Assembly: GCA_964106915.2 (NCBI GenBank)
Contig: OZ066929.1
DNA from: Podarcis gaigeae
Taxonomy: Eukaryota
DNA length: 64,000 nt
Reading direction: 5' to 3' (one strand)
Shown here: piece after piece, positions 3,301 to 60,480 of the stretch
How the letters are laid out: every line of letters starts with the position of its first letter
Numbering within the stretch: position 1 is the stretch's first letter
Program-made: the position numbers and the translations under genes
Notes under the pieces: generated by a model
What the model saw: only the letters and a program-made list of their open reading frames with translations
What the model was told of the DNA's origin: nothing
Database searches by the model: none

Positions 3301-6300
3301 CTCCAGGACTGGGTTGGACTGCAGGAGCCGGTCCTTGATGGTCTCCACCTGCTCGCTGGCTGGGCAGGTGACGGCGTAGTACTGCAGCACCTTCTTGGTG
3401 GCTTCCGTCTTGCCAGCCCCGCTTTCCCCCGAGATGAGGATGCACTGGTCCTTCCTCTCCGTGCGCAGAGAGCGGTAGGCATTGTCTGCAATGGCGTAGC
3501 TGAGGAGGAGGAGAGGAGCAAAGGGCCACAGTCATCACCACTCGGCCAGCGCCACCATCCGGCGCTCCCGGGGCCTGCAGGGGGTGGGGGAAGGAGGCCT
3601 CCCTAGGGGGCACCTGTGCCAGAGTTTTGCTTCTACGTCTTCTCTCTTCACCTGCCTGTGCCTTAAAGAGCTTCTGCTGAGGCTCTTTCTCCAGGCACCT
3701 CCCTCCTTTATTTCCAAAATATCTACCGTAAACCCAGTATGCATTGCCATTAAAACAAAATGTAAAAAACGAGTGTAAAAGCTGGTTAAAACAGGGACTG
3801 AGACTGATATTGGGTCGGATCCCATCTGGCCAGGGAAAGGCTGTGGCAGCATCTGATTCCCGTGATGCGGCCGCGAGGGGCTGCTTGGCTGTGGTGCCCC
3901 AGCTGGGGAAGGACGCCCCCAAAGAGCCTTGCCCAGGGCCCACAGGGCAAATGTTTGGGCACTCAGGGAGGCACTTTCCACTGCTAGAAATCCTCATCGA
4001 CGTTTCAAGGATTTTGTCTGCTGGGTCATAATTGAGAATTTGTACCTTTTTGCTGTATGCTGCCCTGGGTGGTATATGGAGAGCAAACTATTTTAATAAA
4101 TAAATTTAAAAAATTTGATAGGGTTTGGGAGAGACTAAATCCCGATTTTAGCATTCTTTCCCACTCCCTCCCTTCTTTGCTTTCCCTCATCTGAAGGAGG
4201 CTGAAGCTTGTGATCAAGAGCCTGGCAGATCCCACAAGTGGGAAGTTGGGAGGCAGCTTGTCCATCTAAAAGACAGCGCTCCGCCCACTCAGCATTTCCC
4301 TTGGGCCAAATCCCAGTTAACATGGGTAGGGGGGCAGAATGTGACCCGGGATATCCCCTCCTCCCCTCTCTTCCTCCCTCCCATCTCCCAAAGGCACTCC
4401 CTAGATTTTGTACACACACGCCCTGCAAGCCGTGCGGCCGCCGGGTGTTTCGCACACGAAGGGCTCTTTTGTCTTACGAACCCTCCAAAATTGTGCTCAG
4501 AATCAGCACTCCGTTCTCTAAATGAGGAGTGTTCACCCAGCTATGCAAACAAAGATACTGGTCTCTTAGCAACGTGGGAAATGTTGGGCAGAGGGAGCAG
4601 GAAAAATCCCACCCTCTGCCCTCTCCTGTACACACACACACACAGATTTTCCTATCCTTTGGGTGTGGCTGGCGGCCGGCGGCCCCAGAGGCCCAGGACA
4701 AGCAAGAGGGGGAGGGGGCCTGGCTTGACCCCTGGCGTTACCCACAGGTGAGGAGAGACCTCGTAGAAGCTGACGCCCCGGTAGCGCTCCATGTGCTGCT
4801 TGGTGTAGATCTCCAGGTCCTTGTAGGGATTGACGGAGACCAGGACAGAGCCGATGTACGTCTGCAGAGCAAAGGAGGGAGGGGAGGTCAGGAGGCACAG
4901 GGAGGGGGAGAGAGCAGCCTCTGGGACACCTGGTGATCCCTCATAGTGACGCTCTTCTTCTTTGCCTTGAAATCTTCCTCCAAGAAACGTTTCCTGCATC
5001 CCTCAAAGAACTTTGCTTTCAGCTTAGGAGGGGAGGCTTTCTCAGGGGGTTATTACTGGATGTCGTGGGAAACTGGGGGCGGGGGCAGAATGGTCTGCCT
5101 TCCTCAATGTTTGCCTGCGGGGCTGAGGGCAGCTGCACCTCAGTCTGCCCTCCTGGACCCTCTGCTCCAGAACATGCAGTGGGACCGCCCTGCTGGGGCC
5201 CAGCACCCAAGGAGAGGGGCTCTGTGGGGCCACGGCTCCCGTCAGGTAGAGCCCCACAGGGAAAGAGGAGGCTGCTGGATGAAGGGGGCTGCCCCACCCG
5301 CTCCACTCACGTAGATGAGGTTCTCCTTGAACCGCTTGCGCAGATTCTCGATGAAAGCCGCTTCGCTGGTGAAGTTCTCCAGCAGGACAAAGTCCTGGAC
5401 TCCCACGCGGTCGCGAGCCGTCAGGGCGCTCTCCATGGCTGCTAGCCGGACCCCGTCACTGCCGACAGGCTGCAAGGAGCAACAAGAGGGGAGGTTGAGC
5501 CAGGCGGCCAGAGGTGGACAGAGAGGGAAGCCTCGTCCTGCCTGGGCTGGCTGTCAAGGAAGGGCCAAAGGACGGAGGCCAGAGCGAGGGCTGGTGGGGC
5601 TCAGGGAGAGGCATGTCCACAACAAGGAGGGGACGGAAGTCCACACGACCCACTCCAGCCCAGCCAACGCCCCTCAGCTGGTTCACTACCAAAGTTTTAA
5701 CATCTCCTAGAGTAAATGAGTCCAGGTCTCAGAAGCCACAAACGGCAATGCAAATCAGGATCCTTCCCAGGAAGGCTGCGAGGCAGAAGGGAGCAGCTTT
5801 CCCCAACACACACACACACTCCACTGGCATCCCGTCCAGGCCTCCAGGTCCTGCCCTTGGCCAGCAACACCCTGCACATGCCATGGGCGCTCACCAAATG
5901 GTTGGCCAGGTGGAAGCCCATGGGGATGAGAGACCTCTTCTGCTGGATCTGGGCCAACAAGCCCTCGACGTTCATGGCTGGCGTGAGAGGGAACACAGCG
6001 TCCCACGTCCTTCGCTTGCTGGGAGTGGAGCGGAGTGAGCCTGCCGGCCTCTCCCCAGCACTGCGCAGAGCCCCCCCCCCCCATGGAGGAAACTTTCCAT
6101 GCCAACAGGAACATTTCCTCCCCTAGCAAATCCCCAGGAGGCGAGAGGGAGAAAGGAGGTGCACCTGCGCTCCTCAAGAACCCTCTTAACCTCTCCCTGC
6201 CACTCCCCTGCTCAGGCCCCGCAGGGAGCCTTTGGGGGTTGGCTACTGGGAGGGGCTCTTCCAAGGGGGGAAGACCTGGAGTTTGGGGGGGCAGAGTGGG

Positions 6301-37054: not shown

Positions 37055-37156
37055 TCAAAAGTCACACAGTGGTTTCTCATCACAGAGCTGCTCCGGCATC
37101 CTGCTGACTCCGTCCCAGGCCAGGTCCTTCTCTGCTAACATTCTCCTTGGCTGAAT
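37055..37156 (-). CDS. INPP5K: INPP5K exon 12 ([33 protein letters not shown])
   Basis: Acceptor CTCTCCTTTCAG; TGA stop at 37055-37057. Confidence 0.8.
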   Translation of the reverse strand: MQPRRMLAEKDLAWDGVSRMPEQLCDEKPLCDF

Positions 37157-40100
37157 CTGAAAGGAGAGATCAGTCTTTGTTTTTTATTATTTATTACAGT
37201 TCTCTCCCACTTTTCCTCCAAGGAGCTCAGGGCTGCATATACGGTTCTCTTCCCCTCTCTATTTTGTCCTCACAACAACCCTGTGAGGTAGGCTAGGTAA
37301 TCCAGAGAGGAGAACCATTTCCCCAGGTGATTCCAGGAACATTGGGAAGAGCTCCCTGGGGGTTCTAGGAACCTAGGAAGCTGGCTTGTATTGAGTCAGC
37401 CCATCAGCCCCATACCTGAAAGGGCTGACTGATGCCAACCAGGGATTGCATTGTGTTGCTGTAATAACCCAGGAGAAACTCTCCTCCCGTTGCTGGAAGC
37501 TCCTCAGCACTGAGATAGACCTGGGAAAGATAAAGCAAAGGCAGTCAGCATTCAGCAAAACATCTGGAATGAAGCAGCCAGCAGTGATAACCTCTCTTCC
37601 CCCTCACCTGCTTGGCATCCTCCTCTGAGGAAATCTCGTTGTCTTGCACCCAGGCGTACATCACGTAGTCATTTGCATGCTTGAAGGTCACCTGCAAGGG
37701 GGGAGAGATGCCTTGAGCACAACTTGGTTGCCAGGGGAGTGAACACCTGTCTAATAAGTGAGAGCTTTTTGCTCTGGTTAGCTAAGGAAATGGGATGCAA
37801 ACTCTGAACTGTTTCACACTTCAGTATTGCTAAGAGTGATACAAGGTTTTAGAAATGAGGAAATAGGATGACAAAAGCAAGATTAAGCCAAGGCCACACA
37901 ATGATTTATCACAAAGTTTGTAACCTTTTCTCTAAGGAAATTATGGCAACACATAGAGGCTGAGACACAGACAGAAGAACTGGCCTAAATAATCCAAAAG
38001 ATTCCCATAACAAAGACCAAGTCTCTCGTCAGTTTCCTGGCTTTTGACAGCTTCCATCAAAATGAGAATTTTCAGGCGCAAGGAGGTTTGCCACTCACAA
38101 GCCTCCTCTTGTCTCTGAGCCTTGTCTTTGTTTCTGCAGCCTGTTCTTTCCCCCAAGGGAACCCTCCTACCCTGATACCTCGGCTTCACACAACCCACCA
38201 CCGCCTCCTTTTAGTCATTCTTGGCTGCAGGATGCCAAAAATCCTCTTGGAACTGTGGGCACTCTGGGCAGGAGGAAATCTCTGGCACTGTCAGGAGGGA
38301 CCAGGAGAACCTCTCCTTCACACGGAGAAAATGGCACAGTTTTTCTCATGCCCACAGCACACCTTACCCTCAAAGGAGCAGAGGAAATGGAAGCCAGGCC
38401 ATTGGTATGTTGGCTGTGTGCTGTCTACAACAGGCATCTCCAACCTGCGGCCCTCCAGATGTTTTGGCCTACAACTCCCATGATCCCTAGCTAACAGGAC
38501 CAGTGGTCAGAGATGATGGGAATTGTAGTCCAAATCATCTGGAGGGCCAAAGGTTGGGGATGCCTGGTCTACACTGCAATAGATCTCCAGGGTTTCAGGC
38601 AGGGGTCTTTCCCAGTTCAAGAGGCCAGGAGTTCAACTAAGGACTCTTCTGCATGTCTCTGCTGTTGAGCTACTATCCTGCCCCCCTCAGTACACATCTG
38701 TGGCAATGTCACCTTGTAGAGACCAATCCAATCCCAGGCACTGCTTGGAAATTCAGGAGCTGTGGAGTAGCGGACGGTGGCATCTTGCTCAGCATCCCAG
38801 TTGCCCACAGGATGCAGCCTGACCAGTGGGACAGGGGGCAGAGGCTTCATCTGGAAGAAAGGAAAGAAGTTGTATCCCATTGCCACCCATTCAGCAGCAG
38901 TCAAAAGCCGCTCTTCAGGCTCCCAGCTCTGAAAATGTTAATAATCCTCAAGTGCTGCCACTTAAAGGTAAAGGGACCTCTGACCATTAGGTCCAGCTGT
39001 GGCCGACTCTGGGGTTGCGGCGCTCATCTCGCTTTATTGGCCGAGGGAGCCGGTGTACAGCTTCTGGGTCATGTGGCCAGCATGACTAAGCCGCTTCTGG
39101 CGAACCAGAGCAGCGCACGGAAATGCCATTTACCTTCCCACCGGAGCGGTACCTATTTATCTACTTGCACTTGGCGTGCTTTTGAACTGCTAGGTTGGCA
39201 GGAGCAGGGTCCGAGCAATGGGAGCTCACCCCGTCACGGGGATTCGAACCGCGACCTTCTGATCGGCAAGTCCTAGGCTCTGTGGTTTAACCCACAGCGC
39301 CACCCACGTCTCGTGCTGCCACTTAAGCTATTCTAAAAAGGTTGTAGAGTGACCCTCAAAAAAAAATGTGGGGGGTGCAGCAGCTTCATAGGAGACCTTC
39401 CCAAATCAGTAGGCAGACGCAGTTACAGTTTGAAAGCACCTACACGAGAGAAGAGTTTAAACGGGCCTGGAAATCAAAGGCAGAGTCAATCCTGTTTATC
39501 TGCTTAGGGTGCAAGGGCTCTCTCTCCACCAGCCATAAGATGGTTCGTGATCTGTCATTGAGACACAGAGCAAGACTGCAAAGCGTCCATCAGAAAATGC
39601 ACCTTGGGTAGCTGGAAAGATTGTAAAGGCTTCCCAGGTCTTCTGTGGCAGGGCTTCATCGTCCAGCCATTTCTCTGATGGAAGGGACCAGAGTCCCTTT
39701 TCCTAGAGCCAGTTCTGCACTCAGGGAGAGGAGAAGATTACCTCAAGCACAAAGGTCCCGGTGACAGGTTTGTGGTCGCTGATGCCATAACTCATGTGGC
39801 TGATGTAGCTGTGCAGGGACACAGAAATGGCCTCCTCTTCTGGCATCTCTCCTGCTTCCGAGGCCAACTGCAAAAGGTGCTTCACCCTCCAGAGGATCCG
39901 GTCCGTCCATGCAGGCTTCCGCTTCTTCCCACTGCAAAAGGGGAGGCAGTGAGGACACACCAAGGAAGCAAAGCACCCATGGCAGCAGCAGAGGCATTAT
40001 GGGGACAAAGCAACCCAATGCACACACTGCCCCCCCCCCACCGCCTCCATTTTACAGCTCAATCAAACAACATCTGTACGTTAGCAGATCTAACAGAAAG

Positions 40101-43100
40101 GCAGGCGAAGGAGGAGGGAGGTTAATCAACTTCGTATCAGAAAACAACAGGAACTAGCAGCAACCAAGTGTTAACCAGGCTGCATCAGCTACATTTAGAG
40201 TGGCCCATGTGGTAAGTCGTGAAAACGTCAAGTGCTCAGGAGAGGTTTGCCCACATCGAAGTTTGTGCTACCTGCATTTCTGGCCCTGATCCTGGGTAGT
40301 TTTTCAAAAACTCTGCTGTCTCTTCAGAGTGAAATGGTCATAACCCCAGGAGACAAATACAGCCTGGGCTCCCTGGTCATTCGCAGAGGACTCAGAGCAT
40401 GAGGCTTTTAATCTCACGGTCATGGATTCGAGCCCCACTTTGGGCAAAGGATTCCTGCACTGCAGGGGGTTGGGCTAGATGGCCCTTCAGATCCCTTCCA
40501 ACTCTATAATTCTATGATAGAAAGATGTGGGAAGAAGACAGTTTGCTCGGCAGCACTAAACTCTTATTGCCACCGGAGTTATCAGTAGCTTAAGATCTGA
40601 CCTGTTCACTCCATTCCCCACCTGGGTCTCTTTGAAGGGATTAAGCTACCCAAGGGGCAGCTGAGCAACCTACGAATCCTGTTTTAAGCTGCTGACCTGA
40701 CTAAATAGCAGCCAGCAGAGCCCTTTTGTGCCTTGTAGAAGCAAGTGCAGCAGAAGCATTTCCTATCCTGACTTCTGAGGAGCCCCAGCAGGCAGGCAAG
40801 AAAGCAAACCTAGTGAGCCAACAAAATTGAATCCACAAGGGCTATCATGCTGGAGAACAGCTGCTTCCTTCATCCCCATTGATCACTGTGGGGGAAACTC
40901 TCCCTTGCACCCAGATGCAAGAGGCTCTTTTTTATTTCAGGTCCATCGTGCCAATTAGCAGGTTAGGATCAAGCCTCCAGCAGCTGGAGAGAATAGAGCA
41001 GCAACAGTTTGAAATGCTAATAGTCTAATAGTCTAAAATGCTGAAGATTTGGAAAGGAGGGCATCAAAATCTCCTTACTTAAACCAAAAGAGCGTCTTCT
41101 GCCCCCTGAAATAGAAACAGACATTAGTGCAAAAATCCCAAACACCAATTCCACTGGAGCTCTTTTGGAGGACTGGGCCAAGACACTGATGAAGCTCTCT
41201 CCTTCCCCAAACAGCCTCCCGCTTTCTTCTCAGGTGGGCTGCTTATTCACTTTCACCAGCCTGGTCATACATCCAAGATGGGTGTGTTGGGGGGGTAACC
41301 CGCATTTACCTGGTGTCATAGTCATTTGAGTACAGGTCAAACTTGTAGGTGGGTTTGAACTTCAGGGGGCCCTCCATGAATTCTTGAAGAATGGGTTCCT
41401 TCTTCTTAGCGATGTTAAGCTGCATAAATAAAAAGAAAGGAATAACAGAAACGCAAAGCAGCAACCAGGCCCAACTAAAAGAATCCTACATAGGAGAAGT
41501 TCTGCAGCCTCCTCTTCAAGGCTTCTTTCTTTCTTTCTTTCTTTCTTTCTTTCAGAAAGGAGATCCACATGAAGGTCATTTTACTCCACAGAAATCAATA
41601 TGAATGGGACAGGCAAGTTTCACAACTTCCCAGGAGGAAATTTAGAGCCAATTGTGAAATAGATACGGATCAGGAATAAGGCAAAAAATTATGGGAACAA
41701 AATGTAAATATTCACAGATCTGTTGCCAAGTGACATTTGGGGGGGGGTGAGTCATGGGTGGGTGGAATCAGCAGGAGAAATTGTAGGGTCTTCCATCAGG
41801 GGAAGCCAAAAGAGAGAAGAAAGCAGAAGATCCTGCTGGTGGCACAGGAATGAAGAGAACAGAACTTGGAGGTGGTACCTGGTCCTTTTCCCACAAAAGG
41901 CTGAATCGGCTGTTATTGATTGATTCTCGAATGAAATGCAGGCCGTAATCTTCAATCCGGAAGTTCAAGTCACCAAACCAGAAGAGAACGCTTTACAGAG
42001 AAGAAACGAGAAATAACTGCTTAAGAAAAAACAGGAGAAAGCTGCAAGGCAGACATCAGACGTAGCAGATTCATATCTCAGGAGCACATTTACTCTGTAG
42101 CTCTCCATTACCTTTCACCACTGTGCAAAGTTATCTGTCCTCTTGCTCGCTTTGGACTGCATGGTTTTTCCCCATTAGGAAGCATCACTTAGTCTTGAAA
42201 GTGACACAACGGGAGACGGGGGGCGGAGGGCGGAGTCAGACTCACTACTTACAGTGGCTCCCAAAAGAGCTGCCAGAACAATGCTCAAAATGGTCCTCCC
42301 TCTCTGGTCCAGGCACCTTACCTCCCTCCCTTCACAGAACCAGGTGCTTCAGAGCAAAAGGGAAGACTGCCAAGCTTGAGGACCTCCTCTTCTTCCAGGA
42401 ATTTTGTTCCCTTGAACGGACTTCTGTGGAGCTCTGAATAAACCCTAAACTACAAAATTCCACAACCGCTATCTCTTTTTAGGAGTTGGGCAAAAAAATA
42501 GTTTTTTCCCTGGGAATTTGGAGCATCAAGTAAGTTTGTGGCCTTCCGCTCAGCTTTTTATTAGGATAAGTTGAATTGAATCCACATTTTATTGATCAGC
42601 ATTTTAGATTGTTTTTAACGTTCATTTTTGTAAACCACTTTGAGTTGCTTTTGTGGAAACAGCAACAAATTAATCACCACCACCATCTTAATGAAATAAC
42701 CGTCTTCCGGATGCTCTCACTTTGGGTTCAGAGCTATCAGAGAGGCTCCCTAAACTAAATGGACAATGACATATGTAGCAGAGGCCAAGCCAAGCTGGAT
42801 CCTCTTTTCCTAGAAGCAAGACAGCAGCCTCGACCAGATTCAGTTGCCACTCACTCGTGATCCAGGACATTGGGAATCTTTTCGCCTTCAAACTGCTGCA
42901 TCTCCAAGATACGCTCAAAGTCATCCAACCGCTGTCCTGCATTCTCCATGTGGGCTGGCAGGTGGCAGTTCAGGAAACAGATGGTATGTCCATAGACAGA
43001 CATGCGAGTGGTGACACCCCCCTTGTTTCCCTACAAGACATAAGAAGCCAAGGGACCGACGGATCAGGTCCCCCAGATCACACAACAACAGCGCTTGAGG

Positions 43101-46100
43101 CTGTTTTGAGACTTGTTTCCATTGAACTTGTTTCCATTTACAGTTACATTTCAGAAGCAACACCTACCATTCATAAATATCAAACACAGTGCTATTTTTC
43201 TAGAAAAAGAGGTGTCAGAATTTACCAGGAATACCTCCTTTGTTCTCTTATAATAGCAACGGCACCCACCTGAGATGTGTCGGAACTGAGTTCCGGTGAA
43301 TTTCAGCTAAGAAAAGCCCTGGTCAATCCCAAAACTTGTTTGAAGGCAAGAAAGAGACTGGAATGCTCAAGACAACAGAGAAGTAAGCCACCATGGGTGT
43401 TAATTAGGTAGCCAGGAATCAGACTGTTCTTTGGGTACAGAACCGAGGAGCAAATTTGCTAGCACCAGGGATGGCAGCACTTTTTGCTCTGATGTGGTCC
43501 AATCCTGCATCATCATACAGATTAATCTCTGTAGCCCTTGACAAGTTTATAACTTCAGACAAAATGTTTTAAAACTTTGCTAAAAGGAGTAAAATTCTAT
43601 GCGTTCTTTTATTCCTCACTGAAGCCACCGCTGACAACATGCAGAAGTCAAGACTAAGTTGCAATTTGAAAAAGCCATTAAAATGTCTGGAAAACACGGT
43701 GAGCTGCTTACCCAATATCCGTAGAGACCCGTGCGAGTGAACTGGCTCTGAATGTCCCATATGAAGGGGACGTGAGGCTGCTTTGCAAAGACCAGGAGGA
43801 GGAGGCCCTGCATGCGTATGGAAGATACCTGCAAGCAGAAGAGATTTTTTTAAAAACAAACACTAGCGACCCGCCAGAAAAGGTTAGGATGCCCCAGGAA
43901 ATTCCAGGCCTGGGAAGGGAGTCCAAGCACTGCTCAGTTGGCTAAAGAAAGGCGACTGCATCTCCTCTGAGGGCCAAGGAAAGCTTCTGCTTCCTCCATT
44001 CTTGATGGAATTTGAGATAAATGGAAGACAGGCAGCATCAAGAATCTCTTTCTGCCCAGCTCTGATAAAGGCACTGGGGAGCATCTGACCAAAGCCAGTG
44101 CAATGCTCAACAGAACTCTGGCCGTGGAGTGTCTGAGGACCAAGTACAGGAAATATCCAAATTGTAGCCTTGTCTTATTTAATTTAATGCACAGCCACTG
44201 CAATTCTAGGTGGTTGGTAGGCCTTTTGGAATCGAACCAGACTAGAACATTCTTGAAATCAAAAGAACATAAGAAGGTCCTTCAGCAACTGGATCAGGCC
44301 AAAGGGGTCCTCTAGCCCACTGCCCTGCTTCCCATAGTGGCCAACCTGCTCCCCATGAGCAGGACCTGAAAACAGCATAAATACTCTCCACACTTGTAAT
44401 TCACCGTATTCAGAGGCCCTTATTGCCTCCAGACCAGTGGAGGGAGCACAGAGCCACTGTGACTACATTACTTCTTGCATCAGAGACAATTCTAGAACAC
44501 TTAATTCCAAAAGCCAGCCTTGAATGGTTTCTGCTTTGGTGAGTCCCTGGGAGGAGTGGGTAGTCACTGAGAATGCCTCCCCAACGTGCCCTTCCTATGC
44601 TGAATGCAAACTCTGGAACACTTGCAGAAGATCTAGGACTGTCTGCTGGTCAGGAAGGAGGCAGGGCCACACCCAAATGACAAGACACCTCACATGAGAG
44701 AATATTCATCAGGAGAATGTAAGCCAGAGACCACCAATAGACAAATCAACAGGATTACCTTGACATAGCGCAGAGGAGAAAGAACATTCATGAAGAAAAT
44801 ACTCCAAGGATCATCAAAGGCCATGTCGGATAGGAAATTCACAATCTTGGAGTTCACCTCCTGTAAACTGAACACTCCAGGGTTAACTCAGGTAATCTTA
44901 CACCTCATTTTGACAAAAAGTACCCAGACCTATTGGGAAACACTAAGAGCAGAAGCAGCTGCTGTCCAATAAAATGTTTGTTAATCTTTTAACCCATCGC
45001 CTGCATCCACATGAAAGCAGAGGAAGGGAGGGGGCATCACTAAACGGTGGCACAATTCTGGATACCATCTTAGCACACTGAGTACTGACTACTCAGTACT
45101 ACTCCGTGAAATCACACACCAAGAGCATTCTTTCTCGAAGTCCACACAATCCTGAATGGCTGCCCCTTTTCTTGAATGAGTTCTCTCACCTGTGCCACAT
45201 TCCCCCTATGTCCAGAGACCTGCAAAGACCTTCTGCAAAAGATCTCAAGAAGCACCATGCTCGTGAAGGCCGCCTCCTCACTTCTGCAGATGGCATGACC
45301 AGGATGATATCCCCAAGAGGAGCCCCAGCTCTAGTTCCCAAAATACCTACCCAATGACATACATGTCCATTTCCTGGTCTTGCAAGTTGAGCTGCAGCAA
45401 AGAGGTGACATCAGGAGGGGGAGAAGCTGTGCCCACGTTCCAAGTCACCAAGTGCAACCTTCAGAGACAGACAAAAGGCAGCGCAGCTGAAGTACAAACA
45501 GGTGGGGACAGGCTACCTCGTCATCCCATTCACCTCTCCCCTCCTCGTGCCTTATTATCTGTAATCCTGCCCTAAAAACACCAAAGCCCCGCTGGAGAGA
45601 GCCTGTCTGCCTGGGAAGGGCACCTGATCCCTAGAAGCTTCTGCTTCTGCATCTTCCCACAGATCAGAAAAGCCTCGTCGATGGTGCGTGAGACTTCCTC
45701 GTGGATCTCGTCATCGGAGCTGACGTCCTCCACGCAAGCCATGAGCTGTGCCACTCGCTGCCGCAGCTGCAGCCGCCCGCTGGAGCCCGTGCTGCTCACA
45801 CTGGCCGAGCGGCTGCGCAAGGCAGAGGGGGTGCCCTCCAGGTCCAGCAAGGAGACGGAGAGCAAGTCCTGAAGCGGCTCTTCAGGCTGCAAAGATGCCA
45901 TGGGGCCAGCAGGAGAGGGGCATGCCCCACTCCTCACCCAAGGCGCCCCCCAGCCAGAGAAGTGTCAATGTAGGCAGAATTAAGCCTTGCTTCTGGCACA
46001 AGCTAAGCAAGGAAGCCGTCAACCGCACCAGAAGGCAACTCTGAGGCAGGCAGGAAGGGAGGTCCTCTTCCTCTCCTTGCAAGCACTCAAGGTGCACCCC

Positions 46101-47288
46101 CACACCCATGCCACGCGCCAAGATTTAATGCCACTGGAGCCTGGAGATTTATGAAAAGCTATTGTTAACTGAGGCCAATCACATGTTTCTGCCACTGTGT
46201 CATGGAGGTATAATCACTGGTTTTGAGGCACGTGCCCCACATGGAGGGATTGCCAAGCCAGGGACCAAATCTGACAAGTGACCCCCTCAGGAGGCTTTTA
46301 TTAACACAGCTTCTGGCTAGGAAGGGGTTTGGGGGTTCAGAGGTGGCTGTTGGAGCTTAGCTTGTGGTCAGAGAAGTGTGGGGAATCGAAAACATATTTG
46401 GCCTGTTTCCGCACCCAAGTCAGCCCTCCAGAAGGCACAGGGTGTAGCCCAGAGACAGGTGGCCTTGCAAATGCTGCCAGACTACAGCTCCCATCACCCC
46501 TGAGCACTGACTCCGCTGCTTGCTGGGAACTAGAGCCCAACATCTATTGGAGGTTCTCCGCAAATACAGGAGCTGCAAAGGCAGAACGCGGATGTGCCGC
46601 GCAGGGCCGCGGTTAGGAAGACCTGGCTGGGACTTAAGCGCAAGACCCCCGTCCCGCGGGAGGAGGGAGAAGCGCCACCGGCAGGCAGCCCGGCAGCCCC
46701 CGATCCTGGACGTGTTCCCGGCCGCCTGCCTGCCTTTCCGCGGGTGCGCCTCATCACCGCCCCCGGAGGATGTGGAAAGTGCGGGCCGGAGAGCCCCTTT
46801 GGCAGCGGGCGCAGCACCTGCTAAATAAGCGGCCCACGAAGGACTCAAATCCCAGCCGGTGCTTTGCAAGCCGAAATCGGCTTTCGCGCTTCCCGCGGCG
46901 ATTAGCATAACTCCCGCTCCGGAGCCTCGGCGCCGCATCCGGGGGCTTTGCTGTAAGAAGGAGCGCCTGTCCGCGGGCGGAGGCCGGTCACGGGGCCCCG
47001 AAATCCTTCGGGAGGGGTCGCTGCCTCCTCGCAGGAAACCCCAAGGGGGCGGACGAGCCTCGAGGGAGCAGCCCTCGCCTCCCCAACAACGGGAGTGGGG
47101 GCGCCACTTGGGGCAGGAAGGCTCGGGCGCACTCTGCACATGCCCAGGGACTCCCTTGACTCCGCCGGGGGCACGTGGGCCAAAGGGGAGTTTTCCCAAG
47201 ACGGGTCCCCCGCGCGCATGTGCAGGCGCAGCAGGAGGCCCCCTCCGCTTCCTCACCTGAGATGCTGCGGTTCTTCCTCCGGCTCCAT
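37055..47288 (-). CDS. INPP5K: Inositol polyphosphate 5-phosphatase K (SKIP), 12 coding exons
   Basis: Catalytic motifs [38 protein letters not shown] and SDHKPV, plus C-terminal SKICH domain (WDWIGLYK); consistent splice phases; position between PITPNA and MYO1C. Confidence 0.97.
37416..37520 (-). CDS. INPP5K: INPP5K exon 11 ([35 protein letters not shown])
   Basis: Acceptor TTTCCCAG, donor GTATGG, 105 nt, SKICH C-terminal part. Confidence 0.94.
37608..37691 (-). CDS. INPP5K: INPP5K exon 10 ([28 protein letters not shown])
   Basis: Acceptor CCCTTGCAG, donor GTGAGG, 84 nt. Confidence 0.94.
38431..38566. mobile_element. Palindromic hAT-type MITE
   Basis: TIRs CAGGCATCTCCAACCT and AGGTTGGGGATGCCTG; internal inverted CTACAACTCCCAT / ATGGGAATTGTAG; TSD GTCTACAA/GTCTACAC (7 of 8). 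Confidence 0.85.
38713..38850 (-). CDS. INPP5K: INPP5K exon 9 ([18 protein letters not shown]...WDWIGLYK)
   Basis: Acceptor TTTCTTCCAG, donor GTGACA, 138 nt, SKICH DWIGLY. Confidence 0.94.
38966..39312 (-). mobile_element. Apparently full-length Sauria-type SINE with 14-bp TSD
   Basis: tRNA-like head with B box (GGTTCGAATCC on the minus strand), ACCTTT-type tail; GTGCTGCCACTTAA at 38952-38965 and 39313-39326. Confidence 0.88.
39742..39931 (-). CDS. INPP5K: INPP5K exon 8 ([16 protein letters not shown]...[13 protein letters not shown])
   Basis: Acceptor CTTTTGCAG, donor GTAATC, 190 nt, catalytic motifs. Confidence 0.96.
40394..40518 (+). mobile_element. tRNA-derived SINE with CR1-like tail
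   Basis: tRNA(Lys)-like AGAGCATGAGGCTTTTAATCTCACGGTCATGGATTCGAGCCCCAC followed by GGGGGTTGGGCTAGATG...TTCTATGAT. Confidence 0.7.
41310..41419 (-). CDS. INPP5K: INPP5K exon 7 ([37 protein letters not shown])
   Basis: Acceptor TTATGCAG, donor GTAAAT, 110 nt, PTYKF motif. Confidence 0.95.
41523..41553. repeat. (TTTC)n microsatellite
   Basis: Tandem TTTC units. Confidence 0.9.
41879..41990 (-). CDS. INPP5K: INPP5K exon 6 ([37 protein letters not shown])
   Basis: Acceptor CTCTGTAAAG, donor GTACCA, 112 nt, GDLNFR motif. Confidence 0.95.
42855..43030 (-). CDS. INPP5K: INPP5K exon 5 ([30 protein letters not shown]...VLDHD)
   Basis: Acceptor TCTTGTAG, donor GTGAGT, 176 nt. Confidence 0.95.
43187..43321. 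mobile_element. Degenerate hAT-like MITE
   Basis: Imperfect ends CAGTGCTATTTTTCTAG and CTAAGAAAAGCCCTG; internal CGGAACTGAGTTCCG palindrome. Confidence 0.5.
43712..43828 (-). CDS. INPP5K: INPP5K exon 4 ([16 protein letters not shown]...TRTGLYGYW)
   Basis: Acceptor CTGCTTGCAG, donor GTAAGC, 117 nt. Confidence 0.95.
44264..44460 (-). mobile_element. CR1-like 3' end relic
   Basis: AGAACATAAGAAG...CTGGATCAGGCCAAAGG...CTAGCCCA pattern. Confidence 0.5.
44759..44867 (-). CDS. INPP5K: INPP5K exon 3 ([36 protein letters not shown])
   Basis: Acceptor GTGTTCAG, donor GTAATC, 109 nt. Confidence 0.94.
45351..45458 (-). CDS. INPP5K: INPP5K exon 2 ([36 protein letters not shown])
   Basis: Acceptor CTGTCTCTGAAG, donor GTAGGT, 108 nt, phase 2 at both ends, TWNV motif. 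Confidence 0.95.
45624..45901 (-). CDS. INPP5K: Candidate alternative INPP5K first coding exon (92-aa N-terminal extension)
   Basis: ATG at 45901, open for 278 nt, AG|GTGCCC phase-2 donor in frame with exon 2; protein-like composition and local CpG retention. Confidence 0.65.
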
Positions 47289-47600: not shown

Positions 47601-47703
47601 GTTCATGATTTGAATAAATTTTATAATGAAATGATTTTAGAATGTTGTATTATTTTATTGTTGTTAGCCGCCCCGAGCCAGGCTTCGGCTGGGGAGGGCA
47701 GGA

Positions 47704-47767
<64 letters not shown>
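47704..47767. repeat. (TAT)n microsatellite, probably a retroposon tail
   Basis: About 21 tandem TAT units preceded by TTAGCCGCCCCGAGCC...GGGGAGGGCAGGATA. Confidence 0.95.

Positions 47768-51979: not shown

Positions 51980-60480
<8,501 letters not shown>

What the first reader, a model, noticed from the sequence alone, without database searches (positions are those of the whole stretch)
45624..45901. Hidden 92-aa alternative N-terminal exon of INPP5K with an Akt-type site and an acidic helix
Seen: within intron 1, 165 nt upstream of exon 2, a 278-nt ORF starts at ATG 45901 and ends at AG|GT in phase 2, the same phase as canonical exon 1. It encodes [92 protein letters not shown]. It has G/C-ending codons and retains CpGs, unlike the flanking intron. 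Established: RSRSAS fits the RxRxxS Akt consensus, SSDDE fits CK2, INPP5K dampens PI3K/Akt signalling, and the canonical mammalian protein has only a short N-terminus. Inference: a long isoform from a separate promoter, carrying a helical regulatory module that could put the phosphatase under Akt phospho-feedback. The donor (GTGCCC) is weak.
Basis: partly seen in the sequence, partly recalled or inferred. Interest (0 to 1): 0.75.

Follow-up and report, generated by a model that had tools for sequence, protein, structure and literature searches.

The report
Ancient alternative first exon of INPP5K
An intron of the lipid phosphatase gene INPP5K in this lizard holds a second start exon, conserved from fish to marsupials and detected as phosphorylated protein in zebrafish, that likely adds a predicted two-helix docking module to the enzyme; databases already list it as a predicted isoform, and its function is untested.

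Summary
The exon is real. ATG 45901 to the phase-2 donor at 45624 and the 165-nt intron are as described. It is not hidden: database protein records of lizards, turtles, birds, amphibians, marsupials and ray-finned fish carry it, joined to exon 2 at the same point. A zebrafish paper mentions the predicted exon (PMC10239392). No placental record appeared, which is weak evidence of loss. New here: a zebrafish phosphoproteome table holds a peptide unique to the long form, phosphorylated on both serines of SSDDE (3 of 16 runs). AlphaFold gives a disordered lead and two helices with those serines in the turn. There is no Pfam or specific fold match. The Akt-feedback idea is unshown. RxRSxS is kept in 119 of 122 N-termini, but is missing in 4 of 6 marsupials and was not found phosphorylated. 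Four lizard-type RNA assemblies showed no spliced junction among the 15 of 84 joints listed. Best reading: a phospho-tuned docking or targeting module on a minor long isoform.

The parts
47257..47288 (-). Canonical INPP5K coding exon 1 (10 codons + 2 nt, phase 2), inside a CpG-rich stretch
   Evidence: joint to exon 2 seen in 2 of 4 runs laid (X10, X15)
45882..45923 (-). Out-of-frame upstream ATG opening a 13-codon frame that overlaps the alternative start; possible brake on translation (untested)
45624..45901 (-). Alternative first coding exon, 92 codons + 2 nt, phase-2 donor CAG|GTGCCC
45800..45817 (-). Basophilic RxRSxS motif (aa 29-34) in the predicted disordered lead
   Evidence: 119 of 122 N-termini; absent in 4 of 6 marsupials; pLDDT under 50
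45725..45781 (-). Predicted helix 1 (aa 41-59) with near-invariant L46, R47, R49, L53, C56, E58, D59
45710..45724 (-). Predicted turn (aa 60-64) holding S61 and S62; the matching zebrafish serines S44/S45 are phosphorylated
45632..45709 (-). Predicted amphipathic helix 2 (aa 65-90 alone; to about aa 84 in the full-length model) with conserved D75, A77, F78
45459..45623 (-). 165-nt intron between the alternative exon and exon 2; in frame but with stops, so retention would end the product at 109 aa
45351..45458 (-). INPP5K exon 2, start of the 5-phosphatase domain, shared by both forms
37058..44867 (-). Remaining INPP5K coding exons (phosphatase and SKICH domains)
   Evidence: tblastn with a lizard long isoform; splice joints

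Best explanation
The stretch is a conserved coding exon in INPP5K intron 1 that likely serves as an alternative first exon, replacing the 10-residue N-terminus with a 92-residue one whose predicted two-helix core likely docks the phosphatase on a partner or membrane site, tuned by phosphorylation. Shown: reading frame and splice phase; conservation from bichir to marsupials; the same junction in orthologous records; translation and double phosphorylation of the turn serines in zebrafish. Inferred: an internal promoter; low or tissue-restricted use in lizards; CK2 as the turn kinase (consensus recalled); an AGC-family kinase (Akt, S6K, RSK or SGK share RxRxxS, recalled) as a second, dispensable input; docking as the role of the helices; loss in placental mammals. 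Odds: coding exon about 0.95; docking or targeting as its main role about 0.5.
For: 72 hits at 57-85% identity over the aligned part in lizards, turtles and birds, 70 of 72 with the phosphatase and SKICH Pfam hits. The profile extends to amphibians, marsupials, sturgeon, bichir and teleosts (120 of 157 hits listed). The distance from the CG/WG pair to the junction Arg equals this lizard's in Elgaria, Pogona and turtle. In 45 of 45 unspliced read-through ORFs the residue after the junction Arg fits a codon starting with T, as AG|GT in phase 2 requires; 19 of 61 sense codons give such residues (52 examined, 7 set aside, 2 placed by eye, 8 are cluster mates). P0220, a 564-aa assembly-only protein on a 3,592-nt contig, joins the module to exon 2 and runs to the C-terminus, so it comes from spliced sequence. 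Zebrafish embryo table: inpp5kb long-form peptide with S44 and S45 phosphorylated; the stretch lies in 4 of 4 long and 0 of 5 short Danio proteins checked, and maps to lizard S61/S62. In run X1, a related organism, the exon has at most 2 differences in 278 nt against 52 in 1,754 intron nt, p=0.03, and the one listed is synonymous. Column conservation of the core is 0.82 against 0.77 for the phosphatase domain in 74 long forms (hits were picked by likeness to the module). AlphaFold: helices 41-59 and 65-90, pLDDT 85-91 over residues 41-80. Both helices persist in 17 divergent teleost sequences that have lost SSDDE (0 of 17) and keep RxRxxS/T in 11 of 17, so the helices are the steadiest part.
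Against: No 45624-to-45458 joint among the 15 of 84 joints shown for four lizard-type runs. In X1 one contig runs unbroken over exon 2, the intron and the exon, X5 looks the same, and X10 has no depth on 45684-46024 (contigs drop rare forms and RNA status is a guess). The zebrafish peptide is one row, quantified in 3 of 16 runs, and belongs to the teleost paralogue inpp5kb. No partner is identified; docking rests on conservation and shape alone. The donor is weak and an overlapping upstream ATG precedes the start. Orthologous isoforms are predicted models, none curated among the long forms listed.
Confidence: 0.55

Rival explanations
1. The two helices fold back on the enzyme's own phosphatase domain and act as a built-in activator or brake, released or tightened by phosphorylation.
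For: The module ends about 10 residues before the first catalytic strand. Short zebrafish Inpp5kb was nearly inactive in vitro and only the short form was assayed (PMC10239392), and Inpp5kb is the paralogue whose long-form peptide was detected. Human INPP5K has an allosteric pocket (PMC13047053).
Against: The helices score lower in the full-length model (pLDDT 56-68) than alone (85-91), which gives no sign of packing; the two models used different alignments and no inter-domain error was returned. Short human INPP5K and short Inpp5ka are active without the module.
Confidence: 0.2
2. One reading: the exon's main job is to put INPP5K under Akt feedback through RSRSAS.
For: RxRSxS in 119 of 122 N-termini, in a predicted disordered stretch, followed by a hydrophobic residue in most tetrapods. 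INPP5K is described as down-regulating PI3K/AKT signalling (PMC13047053 and PMC6168264 passages).
Against: The site is missing in opossum, antechinus, devil and dunnart while the helices stay (4 of 6 marsupials) and in 6 of 17 divergent teleost sequences. No peptide for it in the zebrafish table that shows the SSDDE phosphopeptide (file cut). RxRxxS does not single out Akt (recalled). One assay found no PIP3 activity for any INPP5K form, and muscle lysosome defects were reported as Akt-independent (PMC10239392).
Confidence: 0.15
3. In this lizard lineage the exon is a recent relic, or is only read as retained intron giving a 109-aa product or a decayed RNA.
For: Unspliced contigs across the exon in X1 and X5 at about intron-level depth, estimated 12-15; weak donor.
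Against: Intact frame, 86% identity to Elgaria, lower divergence than introns in a related organism, conserved donor across vertebrates.
Confidence: 0.04
4. The module is a copy or relative of the RPRD1B (CREPT) coiled coil and would dimerise the enzyme.
For: Best solved-structure sequence match: RPRD1B 4FLA/4NAD, E=0.0009 over profile positions 38-81.
Against: The match weakens to E=0.02 with a broader profile. No Pfam family for the window protein, and no CREPT family among the 13 weak families seen for 27 members.
Confidence: 0.04
5. LxxCxE followed by acidic and phosphorylated residues is a docking site for the B56 subunit of phosphatase PP2A.
For: LxxCxED in 122 of 122 N-termini; acidic or phosphorylated residues after the motif strengthen B56 binding (PMC10970375).
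Against: The review's consensus is [LMFI]xx[ILV]xE, without Cys at position 4. The stretch is predicted helical. Most divergent teleost sequences replace the Glu.
Confidence: 0.04

Closest known systems
Predicted long INPP5K isoforms in RefSeq/UniRef (e.g. Elgaria XP_063002497.1, Chelonia XP_037736078.1, Xenopus XP_018101770.1, wombat XP_027717656.1, Danio XP_005155333.2 / A0A2R8QKI3)
   Same: Orthologous exon, same junction to exon 2, short form listed alongside in the same species.
   Different: These are automatic models without functional description. This window's own long form was not seen in the hit lists.
Zebrafish inpp5ka/inpp5kb alternative exon 1 (PMC10239392, Shukla et al. 2023; author name recalled)
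   Same: The paper notes predicted transcripts with an alternative exon 1 'not found in humans'. The Danio inpp5kb long form is 34 of 61 identical to the lizard module.
   Different: The paper does not link it to tetrapods, describe its motifs or assay it. It gives +48 aa for Inpp5kb, whereas the records give 517 against 459 aa, +58 (pairing of accessions inferred).
Human INPP5K/SKIP (448 aa; PDB 22MJ)
   Same: Same phosphatase and SKICH body; best fold match of the long-form model, 55% identity.
   Different: Described as a two-domain protein whose phosphatase domain starts at residue 16; no record with the module from a placental mammal.
INPP5J/PIPP long and short N-terminal isoforms
   Same: The paralogue also has isoforms with and without an N-terminal extension (PMC6168264); its RSxSxx 14-3-3-type motifs are recalled, not checked.
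   Different: Its extension is proline-rich; no record named INPP5J among the listed hits (one fish record bears INPP5J's older enzyme name but clusters with INPP5K).
RPRD1B (CREPT) coiled-coil domain
   Same: Weak sequence likeness over both helices.
   Different: Signal falls with a broader profile; no Pfam support; unrelated function.

Membership tests
Alternative first coding exon of INPP5K | Open frame from an ATG to a donor in phase with exon 2 | tested here: met
Alternative first coding exon of INPP5K | Protein-level conservation and conserved donor in orthologues | tested here: met
Alternative first coding exon of INPP5K | Spliced transcript and protein in an orthologue | tested here: met
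   P0220; zebrafish phosphopeptide
Alternative first coding exon of INPP5K | Splice junction in this lizard or close kin | tested here: inconclusive
   not among 15 of 84 joints shown; contigs only
Alternative first coding exon of INPP5K | Own promoter and start site (first exon, not cassette) | not testable with these tools
   No CAGE or raw reads. In-frame AGs upstream of the ATG have poor pyrimidine tracts, 6-8 of 20; one at 45813 has 15 of 20. Orthologous models start at their own Met.
Akt substrate (RxRxxS/T) | Consensus present and conserved | tested here: met
   119 of 122; 2 of 6 marsupials; consensus itself recalled
Akt substrate (RxRxxS/T) | Site phosphorylated in cells | tested here: inconclusive
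   No peptide in supplements of 7 papers searched, several cut, empty or unreadable
Akt substrate (RxRxxS/T) | Phosphorylation depends on Akt | not testable with these tools
   needs inhibitor or kinase assay
CK2-type site (S-x-x-D/E) | Serines phosphorylated in vivo | tested here: met
   zebrafish S44/S45, one row, 3 of 16 runs
CK2-type site (S-x-x-D/E) | CK2 is the kinase | not testable with these tools
   consensus only (recalled)
CREPT/RPRD1B coiled coil | Significant profile match | tested here: inconclusive
   E=0.0009, E=0.02, no Pfam hit
CREPT/RPRD1B coiled coil | Structural match and dimerisation | tested here: inconclusive
PP2A-B56 LxxIxE docking motif | [LMFI]xx[ILV]xE | tested here: not met
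   position 4 is Cys

The most novel reading that the evidence does not exclude
Bony vertebrates ancestrally make a long INPP5K with an unnamed, phospho-switched two-helix domain that controls the enzyme's activity or location, and placental mammals lost it. The domain is what the 'nearly inactive' short zebrafish Inpp5kb lacks, so the long form is the working enzyme in retina and pineal.
Probability: 0.15. Interest if true: 0.65.

Novelty: new variant of a known kind. Interest (0 to 1): 0.42.

Why it matters
INPP5K mutations cause a congenital muscular dystrophy with cataracts, and zebrafish is used to model it. The enzyme is treated as a plain two-domain protein. If fish, amphibians, reptiles, birds and marsupials also make a long form with a domain as conserved as the catalytic one, then reagents aimed at the short start codon would likely miss it, and the claim that Inpp5kb lost activity rests on the short form only. 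It also offers a case of an old regulatory exon probably lost in placental mammals. The isoform itself is already in databases, which limits the surprise.

Tried and rejected
RNA: one search listed no holder on record as RNA; 4 of the 24 listed runs were laid, all as contigs, and only 15 of 84 joints were shown, so the missing junction is not evidence of absence. Pfam: nothing for the window protein; only weak scattered families for 27 members. ESM Atlas: no usable hit. Foldseek on the module: no match. VIA-align wide search: best Z 7.4 (rmsd 5.6, 60 aligned), generic helical pairs, RPRD1B not among the 50 rows shown, which does not exclude it. No whole genome is held for the window, so paralogues in this lizard were not searched. 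Placental mammals, monotremes, sharks, crocodilians and snakes were not among the named hits (120 of 157 shown; 3 hits of 147 candidates); clusters show one representative and most hits are unnamed, so this is weak. Supplements with no module peptide: PMC12315934 (3.6 kb of text held), PMC12270485 (files cut), PMC9993608 (unreadable PDF), PMC13010897 (137 characters), PMC10562473 (2 files not searched), PMC12873371 (78 kb). Four repeat-like hits (P0143, P0160, P0161, P0164) were judged spurious. No direct repeats around the exon. Literature searches for a description of the long isoform found only the passing mention in PMC10239392; subscription journals and bioRxiv supplements are not covered. 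Earlier scan notes: nothing on INPP5K.

Full report
Observation. On the minus strand an ATG at 45901 opens 92 codons plus two bases to 45624, followed by GTGCCC; the exon-2 acceptor lies 165 nt further, and canonical exon 1 (47288-47257) ends in the same phase. GC3 is 0.80 and CpG observed/expected 0.68, against 0.18 to 0.33 in the adjoining intron. Of 87 ATG-started frames of this length in the window it has the strongest third-position bias (threshold chosen after the fact). The remaining INPP5K exons map down to 37058.

It is a conserved coding exon, already in databases. The 92 residues found 72 proteins of lizards, turtles and birds, 70 of them with the phosphatase and SKICH Pfam hits (family names for PF22669 and PF17751 recalled). 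A profile of 10 sequences found 157, of which 120 were listed, adding frogs, salamanders, marsupials, sturgeon, paddlefish, bichir and many teleosts including zebrafish. In the species examined a short form is listed beside the long one. The junction to exon 2 is colinear with this lizard's predicted one. An annotation-free check agrees: among 52 hits examined, 45 are unspliced read-through ORFs, and in all 45 the residue after the junction Arg fits a T-starting codon, as a phase-2 AG|GT donor demands. Seven were set aside (4 spurious, 1 unparsed, 2 spliced), two were misplaced by the script and read by eye, and eight are cluster mates. In run X1, from a related organism, the exon differs at no more than 2 of 278 positions against 52 of 1,754 in introns (p=0.03), the listed change being synonymous.

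Expression. For: P0220, known only from an assembly, encodes the module joined to the whole enzyme on a 3,592-nt contig in the opossum cluster. A supplement table of a zebrafish embryo phosphoproteome (PMC12713336; I saw one table row and text passages) lists an inpp5kb peptide of A0A2R8QKI3 phosphorylated on S44 and S45, quantified in 3 of 16 runs. The stretch is in 4 of 4 long and 0 of 5 short Danio proteins held, and the serines map to lizard S61 and S62 (I tested a 23-residue stretch shifted by one from the peptide). Against: in four lizard-type assemblies the canonical joint was seen in two, and the alternative joint was not among the 15 of 84 joints shown. In X1 a single contig crosses exon 2, the intron and the exon, X5 appears to do the same, and X10 has no depth there. 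A rough estimate puts depth on the exon at intron level. These are contigs of unknown tissue whose RNA status is a guess. They suggest a minor or tissue-restricted form and cannot show absence.

Anatomy. AlphaFold on the module with 27 sequences gives disorder for residues 1-37, helix 41-59, a turn at 60-64 and helix 65-90, pLDDT 85-91 over 41-80. In a full-length lizard long form the same two helices appear at pLDDT 56-68. The phosphorylated serines sit in the turn. The core is as conserved as the catalytic domain in 74 long forms (0.82 against 0.77; biased upward because hits were chosen by the module). RxRSxS is in 119 and LxxCxED in 122 of 122 N-termini (3 records starting at the internal Met and 40 without the exon-2 motif were left out). 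The two phospho-motifs can each be lost: RxRxxS is missing in 4 of 6 marsupials, and a divergent teleost type has lost SSDDE in 17 of 17 sequences while keeping the helix residues (includes cluster mates; probably the other teleost paralogue, not verified).

How it likely works. An internal promoter would yield a transcript starting at this exon, giving an enzyme about 80 residues longer. The helix pair, the most constant part, likely binds a partner or membrane site and so sends this form elsewhere than the ER-bound short form (ER targeting through ARL6IP1: PMC6168264, passages). Phosphorylation of the turn, likely by CK2, and of the basophilic site by an AGC kinase would tune it. I put the coding exon at about 0.95 and the docking role at about 0.5. 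The main rival is a built-in regulator of catalysis: only the short Inpp5kb was assayed and it was nearly inactive (PMC10239392; passages and Discussion), and the human enzyme has an allosteric pocket (PMC13047053, passages). Akt feedback remains possible but unshown: no peptide for that site appeared in the supplements of seven papers, most of them cut, tiny or unreadable.

Comparison with known families. No Pfam family, Atlas hit or specific fold. A sequence likeness to the RPRD1B coiled coil (E=0.0009) fell to E=0.02 with a broader profile and is probably chance. The B56 docking consensus is not met at position 4 (PMC10970375, passages). No placental record carried the module, in line with the zebrafish paper's remark that these transcripts are not found in humans; cluster representatives hide members, so loss in placentals is likely, not shown.

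Novelty and score. The isoform is annotated automatically in many genomes and mentioned once in print for zebrafish. Six searches of the held library (listings only, apart from the papers named) found no account of its conservation across vertebrates, its structure, its phosphorylation or its function; subscription journals were not searchable. It is an uncharacterised variant of a known enzyme with an unnamed small domain. Interest 0.42: real, old and directly testable, relevant to a disease-gene model, but an ordinary kind of mechanism.

Noticed in passing
P0078, P0184, P0187, P0190 (Xenopus records): The short Xenopus form shares its first 20 residues with the long form, so frogs may make the short form from an internal donor or use the module as a cassette, unlike the two separate first exons of this lizard.
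   Followed up: no
window 45923-45882 (-): Out-of-frame upstream ATG whose 13-codon frame overlaps the alternative start. Turtle, Anolis and partridge records start at the internal Met54 instead.
   Followed up: partly
window 45813 (-): An AG with 15 of 20 pyrimidines before it, in phase with canonical exon 1, lies inside the RSRSAS codons; use as an acceptor would drop the first Arg of the motif. No read evidence.
   Followed up: no
relatives' isoforms X1 against X2; window intron near 39934-41309: A 27-nt, 9-residue cassette exon in the phosphatase domain is shared by lizard, turtle, bird and zebrafish models; I did not look for it in the window.
   Followed up: no
P0194 and P0196: Zebrafish Inpp5kb long and short records differ by 58 residues, not the 48 given in PMC10239392.
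   Followed up: partly
window about 38460-39310 and 40480-40520: Very high contig depth and many loose ends in INPP5K introns, marking high-copy repeats.
   Followed up: no
window 5242-5553 (-) and 54188-54520 (-): Frames that read like MYO1C and PITPNA exons flank INPP5K (names recalled), the same neighbourhood as human 17p13.3 (recalled).
   Followed up: no
window about 47680-47750: A long trinucleotide microsatellite just upstream of the INPP5K CpG-rich start region (poly-Ile and poly-Leu frames).
   Followed up: no
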